Shown here: piece after piece, positions 12,001 through 15,000 of the stretch | How the letters are laid out: every line of letters starts with the position of its first letter | Position numbering within the stretch: position 1 is the first letter of the stretch | Assembly: GCF_057098645.1 (NCBI RefSeq) | Contig: NZ_JBXSPU010000002.1 | DNA: 64,000 nt | Reading direction: 5' to 3' (one strand) | Origin: a plasmid | Position numbers: made by a program

Positions 12001-15000
12001 GTTCAGTGATATAAACATGGCCGGTTATACATTTAGTGAGTATTCATATACGCGTCGTATTACCGACGAACTTAGTTTGCATATTTCACTTAAAGAGGAC
12101 GATTTCGAAGAGCAATTAACCGATTGTTATATGGATGAAACAACGCTGCCGTCTGGCAAGGTGGTTTTACGCCGTAATAATGAATCAATTATTGGGATTT
12201 ATGAAGGATATGCTTCAAAATCTTACTTTCCTATGGTTGCTAATGTTAGAGTCCTTGATACAGATGGTGAAGTTGTTACTGAACTTTACCAAGGGGTGAA
12301 TGTATCAGAATTAGCTGGTGGTCGGATTAAAATCCATGACCGTCAGGAATTAATTTCTGAGGTGTTCGCTAACTTACGTGAATTCATCCCAGCATCAGAG
12401 GATAAAATCTTTGATGCGGCATGAGTCCTGAAGGTTGAATTATATATTTTCAGGTTTTTATACTTCTAAGAAGGCACGGTTATCCGTGCCTTTTTTTTTG
12501 CTTTCGTCAAAACTTGCATTGATTTCACAATTTTACAACGTTCTTACTGCCCTATATGTTTTACGGTACTGTACTCTTGGCACCGTTACATGTAAGCCTT
12601 CCATTACCTTCTTCAACCAAACCTAGCCTAATTTACATCCTTCCAGCTGTTTCCTTCTCTGCTTCTTTTACTCGAATGTTTTGCCCCTTGCTGACGTTTC
12701 CGGCAGCACACAGTCCGAATGCTGGAGCCTCCAAATTACTTTTTACTTCTTTTGTTTCGGTTTCGCGAAAATAGGTCTCTTATCTGAAAAATGGATCGTT
12801 AGAGATTTGTATACTGTTTAAAACAAAGGAGTCACTATGCCTGCCACTACAATCCTGAGCAATAACCCTGTGAATTCGGTCTTCTCTAATGACAATAGCC
12901 ATTTCACATACCGGCATATTGATTTCAGTATTGAGCTACTGCTTTCTTCAGGAACTGACTCACAACTGGAATATCTGTTTCTCAAACCGGCGGCTGAAGT
13001 AAAGATCGATTTACAGCGCCGTTTAGCTAGTGGGGAACGTTACGTTACAACCGAGAGTTGTGACAATTTTAGCGAAGTTGATGGCTGCATGGGACACGAT
13101 TGCTGAGGACTTTATAACGGCAGGCGTCCGATTTAATACAACACGAGACACTATCACCTAATGATGACTGAATCGTTCTTTGACTGGGTTGTGTATTGCA
13201 TCACAGGCGTAATACTGGCATCTGCGTTCCTCGAAGGAAAAAGAACCCGTTTTCCGGCTGCATTTTTTTACGGAAGCATTGTGCTGCTGGTCGTTTTGAT
13301 AGTGGCCGGTGCCCTCAACTGGTGGTTCTACCGTTCTAAATTCGGCTCAGTTGTCGTTATTTTTGCCGCGACAACGCTGTTAATGACCCGATTCAGATTG
13401 GTTATTTATGCGTTCAGGTTTCGGACGCTGGTGGCAGATCTCCAATCACATGTAGCCAAGGGATTCAGGATAATCCTTGTCTTACCCGAAAATGAAGACG
13501 AGAAGACCGTTTTGCTTAGCAAATTGTCGAAAGTGATACATTCTGGGACGTTGTTTTATACCCGAACAGCTCTGGGTCCATATTCTGGGGATCTCCTGCA
13601 TGCTCTGGGACAAAAGCACCGAAATGGCGAGGGCTATCTGCTTCTTTGTGAGCAACAACTTCCGGCTCGAACCTGGCTAAGCACTGTAGAAAACGGTCAA
13701 CCAGAGAAGTCTATTGCAGTTAATTTTCATTCGATCCCTGATATGGAGTGATACCCCTATGAGCAATACAGATTCACAGACCGTACCAGCTGATGCCCTG
13801 TGTGAAAACAGTTCTCAGGTGAAAATTCAGCTAAGTCGAAGCGCCTCACGAGCATTGACGACGGCGAAAGAAATTCTTGAAACCCGAGGGCTGGTATCCG
13901 TATCCACTGAAGACCTTGTTCAGGCCTGTCTCGAAGAAAATCAGCCACTCGACCTGGCAAGTATCTATCTTGAGCACCGGCTAAAACAGAAGGGAACCAG
14001 TATCTGTGAATTTTAGTGTTTTCCAACCTATTGGGGAAATTCCGGAATGTGTTTATATAGCTGTAAGTAAAGCACTGCGTATTCCGCTCTATTCGATCAC
14101 GGATTGGCATCGAAGTCCGATCAGCGATTCGCATCCATTCGATCAACCGGGAACTTAACTTTTTCTACCGCTTTTTAACGCGTTTTTTCGCTGCTTTCCA
14201 CTACCGGGGGATTTTTCCTCAGTGACTCTCCCTGAAGGACCACTCGGTGTGAGTTATGTACCAGTCTGTCCAGGATGGCATCTGCTGTTGTTGGGTTCTC
14301 CATCAGACCATGCCATTTATCTACCGGGAACTGGCTTACCACTATCGTGCTGCTTTGTCCGTAACGATCCTCTATGAGCTCCAGAAGGTCATTACACTGG
14401 GCGTTACTTAACTGTTCCAGCCCCAGATCGTCCAGGATTAGAACCTGTATTTTTTGCAACTGTTTCAGATATTTCAGCCAGCTGCCATCAACACGTCCCT
14501 GAGCCAGTTGTTCCAGTAATCGCCCGGTTCTACAGTACCGGACGCTGTGTTTCTGTCGACATGCCTGTTCGCCCAGCGCATTGGCTATCCAGCTCTTGCC
14601 ACATCCTGTCGGACCGGTTATCAGCAGGTTTTTCCTGTGGGTTATGTAGTGGCCGTTCAGCAGTTCTCTCATCTGTTCAGCCCGCAGACCTCTTGAGGCC
14701 GGATAGCGCAGCCCTTCCGGTGTTGCCTGGTATTTCAGGCCGGCATTTTTTCTCAACCGTGCCACACGGCTGTTTTCCCTGCTCAGAAGCTCGTCATCAA
14801 CCAGCAGCGTCAGCCTTTCCTCGAACGACAGTTCGTCGTAGGTCTGAGGCGTTTCCCGCTGCCGTATCAGGCTCCCGGCCATCGCCGGGAGTTTCAGTTG
14901 GGTCAGTTTGTTTAACAGGTTATCACTCATACTGTTGTTCCTTCTGTCAGTGGTAGTAGCCCGGACCACGCAGGTTTTCATGCTCTGAAGCATATGCCGG

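What the first reader, a model, noticed from the sequence alone, without database searches (positions are those of the whole stretch)
12500..14016. Small gene set between the cluster terminator and the IS21-family element, including a membrane protein
Three short ORFs (12837-13106, 13161-13751, 13714-14016) have no recognisable motifs. The last is probably cut by the IS21-family end near 14005. Their position next to the cluster suggests accessory function; small membrane plus soluble pairs are often toxin-antitoxin or exclusion genes.
Basis: inference. Interest (0 to 1): 0.25.

Follow-up and report, generated by a model that had tools for sequence, protein, structure and literature searches.

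The report
Conserved orphan three-gene IncHI plasmid module
These are three real, intact genes of unknown function, already annotated as hypothetical, that belong to the core backbone of IncHI resistance plasmids (they are identical in R27); they probably encode a membrane-anchored protein with two small acidic partners and sit at the head of the plasmid's Tus (replication-terminus protein) gene block, and no toxin-antitoxin or exclusion signature was found.

Summary
The three ORFs are real genes. Window 1934-14076 is 100% identical to IncHI1 backbone apart from one IS903-like insertion. The three proteins carry the same accessions as in R27 (WP_001111914, WP_000988154, WP_000072212).

- ORF3 starts at ATG 13759, not 13714.
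- ORF3 is not cut. It keeps its native stop (14016).
- The IS21-family element (ISSso4) begins at 14076/77, not near 14005.

All three are under purifying selection (dN/dS 0.06-0.14). They keep their order, often with overlapping stop and start codons, in ten diverged contexts. This holds even where the upstream paralog array is missing. They occur in 1409 PLSDB plasmids, against 1415 for the neighbouring Tus gene.

Predicted products:
- ORF1: small, acidic, with four invariant His/Cys residues (possible zinc site).
- ORF2: three transmembrane helices plus a cytoplasmic Rossmann-like domain with no significant structural match.
- ORF3: small, acidic, helical.

Pfam, NCBIfam, PADLOC, PHROGs and PDB give no significant match. 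Best guess, at low confidence: a membrane-anchored three-protein complex heading a roughly nine-gene Tus operon, serving plasmid replication or maintenance. Toxin-antitoxin and exclusion roles are not excluded but have no positive support. Interest is low.

The parts
12468..12495 (+). Intrinsic terminator ending the upstream paralog array. It separates the array from the trio.
   Evidence: 12-bp stem with 6 G-C pairs, followed by a T-run. It is one of only two strong terminators in 13 kb of the equivalent backbone. The only Rfam matches here are weak, sub-threshold terminator-like hits.
12496..12836 (+). Pyrimidine-rich (C/T) spacer of about 340 bp with the likely promoter and leader of the trio at its 3' end. 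An 18-bp block, AGAGATTTGTATACTGTT (12801-12818), is invariant between IncHI1 and IncHI2 and contains a -10-like TATACT (12810-12815). The Shine-Dalgarno AAGGAG lies at 12827-12832.
   Evidence: Composition skew. Alignment of IncHI1, IncHI1B-like and IncHI2 spacers. Sequence read directly. Promoter function is inferred and was not tested.
12837..13106 (+). ORF1, 89 aa (WP_001111914; inferred to be R27 R0192). Small acidic soluble protein (pI 4.6) with invariant H27, C75, C84 and H87, a possible zinc site.
   Evidence: dN/dS 0.14. Acidic in 6 lineages. Invariant columns in 8 lineages. No family hit.
13161..13751 (+). ORF2, 196 aa (WP_000988154; inferred to be R27 R0191). Inner-membrane protein with three transmembrane helices (about 5-24, 32-52, 63-83), predicted N-terminus out and C-terminus in. 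It carries a cytoplasmic beta-alpha-beta-alpha-beta-alpha-beta Rossmann-like domain (103-188) and a highly conserved C-terminal AVNFHxIPDxE tail.
   Evidence: AlphaFold pLDDT 76.9. Hydropathy and positive-inside rule. Alignments. dN/dS 0.13. Only 19 clusters in 1.84 billion proteins. No significant fold match.
13759..14016 (+). ORF3, 85 aa (WP_000072212; inferred to be R27 R0190). Small acidic protein (pI 4.8) with a disordered N-terminus and three predicted helices (27-42, 50-59, 66-77). It is intact with its native stop codon.
14017..14076 (+). Remaining 60 bp of the native spacer between ORF3 and the next backbone gene (178 aa, WP_000836954). That gene is missing from the window.
   Evidence: Identity to the backbone ends at 14076. 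In L001 the next ATG follows 14 nt later.
14077..16714 (-). ISSso4 (IS21 family; istA and istB on the minus strand). It cuts the trio off from its downstream backbone genes. It is not part of the module but bounds it.
   Evidence: Annotated matches. Terminal repeats and TG...CA ends. The backbone downstream of the breakpoint is absent from the window.

Best explanation
What it is (shown): a three-gene module of the IncHI plasmid core backbone, identical to the R27 genes that I infer to be R0192-R0191-R0190. It is expressed from its own promoter region downstream of a strong terminator. The reading frames are closely spaced here (54-bp and 7-bp gaps) and overlap stop-to-start in distant relatives.

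How it most likely works (inferred, low confidence): the three products form one stoichiometric complex at the inner membrane. ORF2 is the anchor, with three transmembrane helices and its Rossmann-like domain in the cytoplasm. The two small acidic proteins are its soluble partners: ORF1, probably held together by a His-Cys-Cys-His zinc site, and ORF3, helical. The module forms the 5' end of a roughly nine-gene transcription unit that also encodes the plasmid's Tus-like replication-terminus protein and faces a tyrosine recombinase gene. I therefore place its function in plasmid housekeeping, meaning replication termination, resolution or maintenance at the membrane. I do not place it in killing, exclusion or service to the upstream paralog array. 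In this window ISSso4 has cut the trio off from the rest of that unit.
For: Identity:
- 100% DNA identity to the IncHI1 backbone, and the same protein accessions as in R27.

Real genes:
- dN/dS is 0.06-0.14.
- The families align down to 18-36% identity.

One unit:
- The order ORF1-ORF2-ORF3 is invariant wherever the upstream flank is present. The two contigs that begin at ORF2 (L015, L016) show ORF2-ORF3 only. The loci examined are L002, L003, L004/5, L010, L011, L012, L013/14, L015/16 and L017/18.
- Stop and start codons overlap in L002, L003 and L004.

Independence from the paralog array:
- The array is absent in L004 and replaced in L012.
- A strong terminator lies between array and trio.

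Link to Tus:
- Wherever the contig extends far enough, the trio is followed by two small genes (134-178 aa), usually a third, and then Ter/Tus and two more genes. In most loci all are co-directional and tightly spaced. L003 has one opposite-strand gene in the block, and contig L018 ends before Ter.
- No strong terminator lies between ORF1 and the last of these genes in L001.
- The trio occurs in 1409 PLSDB plasmids and the Tus gene in 1415, with nearly identical identity bands.

Expression:
- In R27 microarrays, R0190-R0192 give signals of 930, 635 and 1380 at 25 C and 904, 540 and 1215 at 37 C.
- The upstream R0193 and R0194 are not expressed, while the downstream R0189-R0184 are expressed at a similar level (PMC7366339 Table S3). 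The ORF numbering is inferred by counting from hha=R0182 and insD=R0195.

Architecture:
- ORF2 is modelled with three transmembrane helices plus an alpha/beta domain at pLDDT 77. The positive-inside rule puts the domain in the cytoplasm.
- ORF1 has invariant H27, C75, C84 and H87.
- ORF1 and ORF3 are acidic in every lineage.
Against: - Co-transcription with Tus is inferred from spacing, absence of terminators and similar array signals. It has not been shown.
- Complex formation was not tested, because no multimer prediction was available.
- Guilt by association is weak here. The whole 30-kb region is conserved backbone with fixed gene order, so adjacency to Tus may carry no functional meaning.
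- The zinc site rests only on four invariant residues.
Confidence: 0.35

Rival explanations
1. Toxin-antitoxin or abortive-infection-type module. ORF2 would be a membrane-acting toxin or effector, held in check by one or both small acidic proteins. This would stabilise the plasmid by post-segregational killing or protect the host from phage.
For: - A small membrane protein flanked by small soluble proteins in a tightly coupled operon.
- Constitutive expression in R27.
- Acidic small partners could be neutralisers.
- Nothing tested here excludes toxicity.
Against: - No hit to any toxin, antitoxin or defence model in Pfam, NCBIfam or PADLOC. The best is DrmC at E 0.013, the Pfam PLD-like match (PLDc_2) recurs in only 1 of 20 members, and there is no HxK motif.
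- ORF3 has no convincing DNA-binding domain. The TetR_N match is partial, at E >= 0.016, and is absent in distant homologues. The protein is acidic.
- The family is tiny (19 clusters in 1.84 billion proteins) and always sits at one backbone position, diverging with the plasmid. TA and defence modules typically move between contexts.
- ORF2 has a well-conserved 95-residue cytoplasmic domain, unlike simple membrane toxins.
Confidence: 0.15
2. Conjugation-related accessory device, such as an additional entry- or surface-exclusion determinant, or a membrane factor that helps DNA transfer or establishment in the recipient.
For: - Lineage-specific inner-membrane proteins of this size with cytoplasmic C-termini are typical of TraS/Eex-type exclusion proteins (my own knowledge, not tested).
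- The trio lies a few kb downstream of a nine-gene cluster (R0204-R0002) that is cold-induced together with the tra genes.
- R0190-R0192 are derepressed 6.6- to 10-fold in an htdA mutant at 25 C.
Against: - Unlike tra genes, the trio is not thermoregulated (fold change 1.03-1.18).
- htdA derepression affects 139 of 181 expressed R27 genes, so it is not specific.
- The R27 entry-exclusion system is attributed to the Z operon of Tra2.
- The ORF2 cytoplasmic domain and C-terminal tail are strongly conserved across IncHI1, IncHI2 and more distant relatives. This is the opposite of the diversification expected for exclusion specificity.
- The trio is not in a tra operon.
Confidence: 0.15
3. Accessory genes of the upstream array of ~300-aa paralogs.
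For: The trio is adjacent to the array and conserved with it in IncHI1 and IncHI2 plasmids.
Against: - The trio is retained in the same position with no array (L004) or with unrelated genes instead (L012).
- The number of paralogs varies from 0 to 5.
- A strong terminator and a 340-bp spacer separate the two.
- In R27 the last paralog is destroyed by IS2 and the ORFs just upstream of the trio are silent, yet the trio is expressed.
Confidence: 0.05

Closest known systems
R27 / pHCM1 backbone ORFs (inferred R0192, R0191, R0190; RefSeq WP_001111914, WP_000988154, WP_000072212), annotated 'hypothetical protein'
   Same: The protein accessions are the same. DNA is 100% identical over 12837-14016 to pHCM1, and the same protein accessions are annotated in R27. 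Neighbours on the upstream side are the same.
   Different: Here ISSso4 has replaced everything downstream of position 14076. The 178-aa gene, Tus and the rest of the block are missing from the window.
TraS / Eex-type entry-exclusion inner-membrane proteins of conjugative elements
   Same: A small, lineage-restricted inner-membrane protein with a cytoplasmic C-terminal part, encoded on a conjugative plasmid. The resemblance rests on my own knowledge of those families.
   Different: - No sequence similarity was detected.
- The gene is not located in a tra operon.
- The cytoplasmic domain is conserved rather than diversified.
- Exclusion in R27 is assigned to the Z operon.
Tripartite toxin-antitoxin operons (for example regulator-antitoxin-toxin arrangements)
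   Same: Three small, tightly coupled genes on a plasmid, one of them potentially harmful (membrane protein).
   Different: - No homology to any toxin or antitoxin family.
- Fixed genomic context and a very narrow distribution.
- No recognisable DNA-binding antitoxin.
Generic Rossmann-like / P-loop-like three-layer alpha/beta domains (clamp-loader delta, Hda, ORC, phosphofructokinase N-domain)
   Same: The beta-alpha-beta-alpha-beta-alpha-beta order of secondary structure in ORF2 residues 103-188. These are the top Foldseek hits.
   Different: - E-values are 0.07 or worse and TM-scores 0.3-0.38.
- No Walker A motif is present in the sequence.
- The domain is fused to three transmembrane helices.

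Membership tests
IncHI plasmid core backbone (R27/pHCM1 type) | Sequence identity and synteny with reference IncHI plasmids | tested here: met
   100% identity over window 12000-14076 to many IncHI1 plasmids. The proteins have the same accessions as in R27. The same gene order is found in IncHI2.
IncHI plasmid core backbone (R27/pHCM1 type) | Presence in essentially all members of the group | tested here: met
   The trio matches 1409 PLSDB records and the neighbouring Tus gene 1415, with nearly identical identity bands.
Type II / tripartite toxin-antitoxin system | Toxin or antitoxin homologous to a known family | tested here: not met
   No significant hit in Pfam, NCBIfam or PADLOC.
Type II / tripartite toxin-antitoxin system | Antitoxin with a DNA-binding fold (RHH, HTH, AbrB, Phd) | tested here: inconclusive
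Type II / tripartite toxin-antitoxin system | Toxicity of one component, neutralised by another | not testable with these tools
   This needs expression experiments.
Entry-exclusion proteins (TraS/Eex/EexA-like) | Inner-membrane location | tested here: met
   By prediction only: three transmembrane helices.
Entry-exclusion proteins (TraS/Eex/EexA-like) | Encoded within or next to the transfer operons and regulated with them | tested here: not met
   The trio lies outside Tra1 and Tra2. It is not thermoregulated in R27. The exclusion system is assigned to the Z operon.
Entry-exclusion proteins (TraS/Eex/EexA-like) | Reduces DNA entry from donors carrying the same plasmid (exclusion index) | not testable with these tools
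   This needs mating assays.
PLD-family nuclease (PLDc_2 / DrmC) | Significant profile match and the HxK(x)4D catalytic motif | tested here: not met
   PLDc_2 scores E 0.2 in 1 of 20 members. DrmC scores E 0.013 in a single query. No HxK motif is present in the aligned region.
P-loop NTPase / AAA+-like domain | Walker A motif GxxxxGK[ST] | tested here: not met
   The motif is absent from ORF2 and its homologues. Fold hits to such proteins are non-significant.
Zinc-binding small protein (ORF1) | Four conserved Cys/His ligands | tested here: inconclusive
   H27, C75, C84 and H87 are invariant in 8 lineages at 36-82% identity. No zinc-finger family matches, no structure model was made, and metal binding was not tested.
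Gene truncated by an insertion sequence | Reading frame interrupted by the IS end | tested here: not met
   ORF3 has the same length and stop as in uninterrupted plasmids. The IS starts 60 bp after the stop.

The most novel reading that the evidence does not exclude
The trio is a previously uncharacterised, IncHI-lineage-specific membrane-anchored three-protein system. It comprises a zinc-binding acidic subunit, a three-helix membrane protein with an unclassified Rossmann-like domain, and an acidic helical subunit. It would couple the plasmid's Tus-dependent replication termination or resolution to the inner membrane, a function with no described counterpart in other plasmid groups.
Probability: 0.2. 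Interest if true: 0.45.

Novelty: already known. Interest (0 to 1): 0.2.

Why it matters
IncHI1 and IncHI2 plasmids carry multidrug resistance in S. Typhi, and mcr-1, tet(X4) and mcr-9 in Enterobacterales. Over half of their core genes are still 'hypothetical'. Three things are now established for these three genes. They are a single conserved unit. They are as universal in these plasmids as the plasmid Tus gene. And they are physically tied to the Tus block. This gives a concrete, small target for deletion studies of IncHI maintenance.

For this particular window the practical message is modest. The genes are ordinary, intact backbone genes. The IS did not truncate one of them but cut the trio off from its downstream partners.

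Tried and rejected
1. Family searches of all three proteins, the two neighbouring paralogs and seven further backbone neighbours (Pfam, NCBIfam, PADLOC, PHROGs) gave nothing significant.
2. The PLD-like lead for ORF2 (PLDc_2, DrmC) was rejected. It appears in 1 of 20 family members and there is no HxK motif.
3. My by-eye ribbon-helix-helix reading of ORF3 was not supported. No RHH family hit appeared. The AlphaFold monomer gives three helices at low confidence. The weak TetR_N match covers only the first two helices and vanishes in distant homologues.
4. PDB sequence-profile searches for all three families found nothing below E 0.09.
7. The exhaustive profile search for ORF2 found only 19 clusters, all of the same family or frameshifted fragments of it.
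8. A scan of GTDB representative genomes found no relative.
9. Rfam over 12000-14300 matched only the terminator hairpin, below threshold.
10. Literature:
   - No paper mentions the three protein accessions.
   - A search for the R27 ORF numbers returned only unrelated papers.
   - The 2000 R27 sequence paper is not held, so the ORF numbering is inferred by counting.
   - An IncHI2 evolution study gave no information specific to these genes.
   - The main text of an IncHI1 proteomics study did not mention these genes; its supplement was not checked.
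Full report
**Observation**

The ORF list and the raw sequence confirm ORFs at 12837-13106 and 13161-13751. They also show a maximal ORF at 13714-14016. Megablast against PLSDB shows that window 12000-14076 is 100% identical to many IncHI1 plasmids. In one of them (pYPE10-190k-tetX4, locus L001), RefSeq annotates three hypothetical CDSs. These correspond to window 12837-13106, 13161-13751 and 13759-14016.

The third gene therefore most likely starts at ATG 13759. GGAG lies 10 nt upstream, and all homologues begin at this Met. A blastn of L001 against the window shows two colinear 100% blocks. Backbone identity ends exactly at window 14076.

In the uninterrupted plasmid the sequence continues ...aaagcact|ctacaggtaaataATG into a 178-aa gene. 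In the window it continues |gcgtattccgc..., which is the end of an IS21-family element annotated elsewhere as ISSso4. So the insertion sequence starts 60 bp after the ORF3 stop.

A strong intrinsic terminator lies at 12468-12495. It is followed by a pyrimidine-rich spacer of about 340 bp.

**Are they genes?**

Each ORF has its own narrow but clean protein family.

| Gene | dN/dS against an 84%-identical relative (L011) | Amino-acid identity to IncHI2, where synonymous sites are saturated |
|---|---|---|
| ORF1 | 0.14 | 46% |
| ORF2 | 0.13 | 63% |
| ORF3 | 0.06 | 65% |

The genes are real.

**Distribution and context**

An exhaustive profile search of 1.84 billion representative proteins found only 19 clusters for ORF2. 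These are full-length relatives down to about 25% identity, plus frameshifted fragments. I retrieved the contexts of ten diverged members:
- IncHI2 (L010)
- an IncHI1B-type plasmid (L011)
- Photorhabdus tasmaniensis (L012)
- metagenomic or SRA contigs L002, L003, L004/5, L013/14, L015/16 and L017/18

Wherever the contig extends far enough, the order is:
1. AAA_5
2. DUF3150
3. VWA
4. a 72-aa gene
5. Toprim/DUF7146
6. a gene of about 175 aa
7. zero to five ~300-aa paralogs
8. ORF1, ORF2, ORF3
9. two small genes of 134-178 aa
10. usually a third gene (about 90 to 306 aa)
11. Ter/Tus
12. a gene of about 260-300 aa
13. a gene of about 103-114 aa
14. a tyrosine recombinase on the opposite strand
15. 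Hha
16. CoiA-like

This order is seen. L003 carries one opposite-strand gene inside the block.

Four points follow:
1. In the distant relatives the three reading frames overlap stop-to-start, for example L003 7754-8008 / 8001-8591 / 8588-8815. This is the signature of translational coupling and of products needed in fixed proportion.
2. The trio persists where the paralog array is absent (L004) or replaced (L012). It is therefore not an accessory of that array.
3. The genes from ORF1 to the 103-114-aa gene are tightly packed and, in most loci, co-directional. In L001 no strong terminator lies between ORF1 and the end of that block.
4. In PLSDB the trio matches 1409 records and the Tus gene 1415, with nearly identical identity bands.

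**Expression**

R27 carries the identical proteins at 164645-165824 on the minus strand. I counted ORFs from hha (R0182) and from the IS2 insD (R0195). Both are named in Gibert et al. 2020 (PMC7366339). This counting gives ORF3 = R0190, ORF2 = R0191 and ORF1 = R0192. The assignment is an inference, because the original ORF table was not available.

Microarray data from Table S3 of that paper:

| R27 ORF | Signal at 25 C | Signal at 37 C | Fold change in htdA mutant, 25 C |
|---|---|---|---|
| R0190 | 930 | 904 | 6.6 |
| R0191 | 635 | 540 | 10.0 |
| R0192 | 1380 | 1215 | 7.5 |

- The three genes are not thermoregulated.
- R0193 and R0194, just upstream, are not expressed.
- R0189 to R0184, downstream and including Tus, are expressed at similar levels.
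- Derepression in the htdA mutant is shared with most R27 genes.

This pattern fits a promoter in the spacer upstream of ORF1 and read-through into the Tus block.

The last 60 bp or so of that spacer are much better conserved than the rest. They include an 18-bp block, AGAGATTTGTATACTGTT, that is invariant between IncHI1 and IncHI2. The block contains a -10-like TATACT 21 nt upstream of the start codon. Promoter activity is inferred.

**The proteins**

*ORF1 (89 aa)*
- It is acidic in every lineage examined (pI 4.4-5.6).
- Across eight lineages at 36-82% identity, H27, C75, C84 and H87 are invariant. They lie within a conserved C-x8-G-C-x-G-H end motif.
- This suggests a structural zinc site. 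It is an inference only, and no zinc-finger family matches.

*ORF2 (196 aa)*
- It has three hydrophobic segments.
- The N-terminus is acidic, and positive charges cluster in loop 1 and after the third segment. This predicts N-terminus out, C-terminus in.
- AlphaFold with a 20-sequence alignment gives pLDDT 76.9. The model has three long helices followed by a beta-alpha-beta-alpha-beta-alpha-beta domain at residues 103-188.
- The most conserved stretch is the C-terminal W-L-x-x-V-E-N-G-x-P-x-x-S-I-A-V-N-F-H-x-I-P-D.
- There is no Walker A motif and no HxK motif. The weak PLD/DrmC signals are noise.

*ORF3 (85 aa)*
- It is acidic.
- The N-terminal 25 residues are disordered and variable, followed by three predicted helices. 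The model is poor (pLDDT 60.5).
- A partial TetR_N match (first two helices only, E >= 0.016) appears in 7 of 11 close members but not in distant ones.
- I do not regard a DNA-binding role as shown. The consistent acidity argues mildly against it.

**Mechanism**

Shown:
- The three genes form one conserved, coupled, expressed unit of the IncHI core.
- They are separated from the upstream array by a terminator.
- They are physically continuous with the Tus block.

Inferred:
- The products assemble into a membrane-anchored complex. ORF2 would be the anchor with its domain in the cytoplasm, and ORF1 and ORF3 would be soluble partners.
- The complex serves plasmid housekeeping linked to replication termination or resolution.

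I give this mechanism about 0.35. The rivals are toxin-antitoxin or abortive infection (0.15), a conjugation or exclusion accessory (0.15), and an accessory of the paralog array (0.05). The remainder is 'something else'.

The main arguments against toxin-antitoxin, defence or exclusion roles are:
- the absence of any family signal;
- the fixed backbone position over deep divergence;
- strong conservation of the ORF2 cytoplasmic domain;
- the lack of tra-like thermoregulation;
- the existence of a separate, characterised exclusion operon in R27.

**Comparison and novelty**

The genes themselves are already in databases as hypothetical proteins of R27, pHCM1 and more than 1400 other plasmids. 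Nothing about the window's copy is unusual, except that ISSso4 has cut it off from its downstream genes. By sequence and predicted fold the proteins belong to no described family. I therefore rate the finding 'already known' as a feature, with the function unknown. Interest is low (0.2).

**Context of the window**

To the right of ISSso4 the window carries:
- a fragment of F-type traH;
- IS3-family elements;
- cytochrome b562;
- katP;
- the ehx operon;
- an autotransporter gene and PerC.

This is EHEC virulence-plasmid content. The ORF3-ISSso4 junction is found neither in PLSDB nor in complete E. coli genomes. The IncHI segment extends to the left end of the window.

Noticed in passing
window 7401-12424: Five tandem, co-directional paralogous genes of about 292-320 aa. 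No Pfam, NCBIfam, PADLOC or PHROG hit was found for the three copies scanned (7401-8276, 10356-11288, 11462-12421). The copy number varies from 0 to 5 among related elements, and in R27 the last copy is split by IS2.
   Followed up: partly
window 6318-7374: A 1057-bp IS5-family element, IS903-like by its GGCTTTGTTGAATAAATC inverted repeats. Its transposase is on the minus strand. It is flanked by a 9-bp target duplication, ccctcagag, and is inserted between the 174-aa gene and the first paralog relative to other IncHI1 plasmids.
   Followed up: yes
window 14077-64000: Beyond ISSso4 the window is not IncHI backbone. It carries an F-type traH fragment, IS3-family elements, cytochrome b562, katP, ehxCABD, an autotransporter gene and PerC, which is EHEC virulence-plasmid content. 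This points to an IncHI1/virulence-plasmid mosaic or cointegrate. The junction is absent from PLSDB and from complete E. coli genomes.
   Followed up: partly
window 12801-12818: An 18-bp block, AGAGATTTGTATACTGTT, is invariant between IncHI1 and IncHI2 although the surrounding spacer has diverged. It contains a -10-like TATACT and a GTATAC palindrome, so it is a possible promoter or operator.
   Followed up: partly
window 12496-12800: The spacer is strongly pyrimidine-rich on the + strand (GC skew about -0.2, AT skew about -0.27). The IncHI2 spacer is also C/T-rich although it barely aligns. The reason is unknown.
   Followed up: no
window 1-5458 (AAA_5 fragment, DUF3150 601-1728, VWA 1806-3818, Toprim 4205-5458): These genes belong to the nine-gene R27 cluster R0204-R0002. 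Gibert et al. 2020 report that this cluster is induced 5- to 23-fold at 25 C together with the tra genes. Its function is unknown.
   Followed up: no
L001 11091-14839 (absent from the window): The genes that normally follow the trio (178 aa, 151 aa, 91 aa, Tus, 302 aa, 114 aa) have no Pfam hit except Tus. Some relatives carry a DUF2913 gene before Tus.
   Followed up: partly
window 13757-14146, minus strand: A 129-aa antisense ORF overlaps ORF3 and runs across the backbone/IS junction. It is almost certainly spurious.
   Followed up: no
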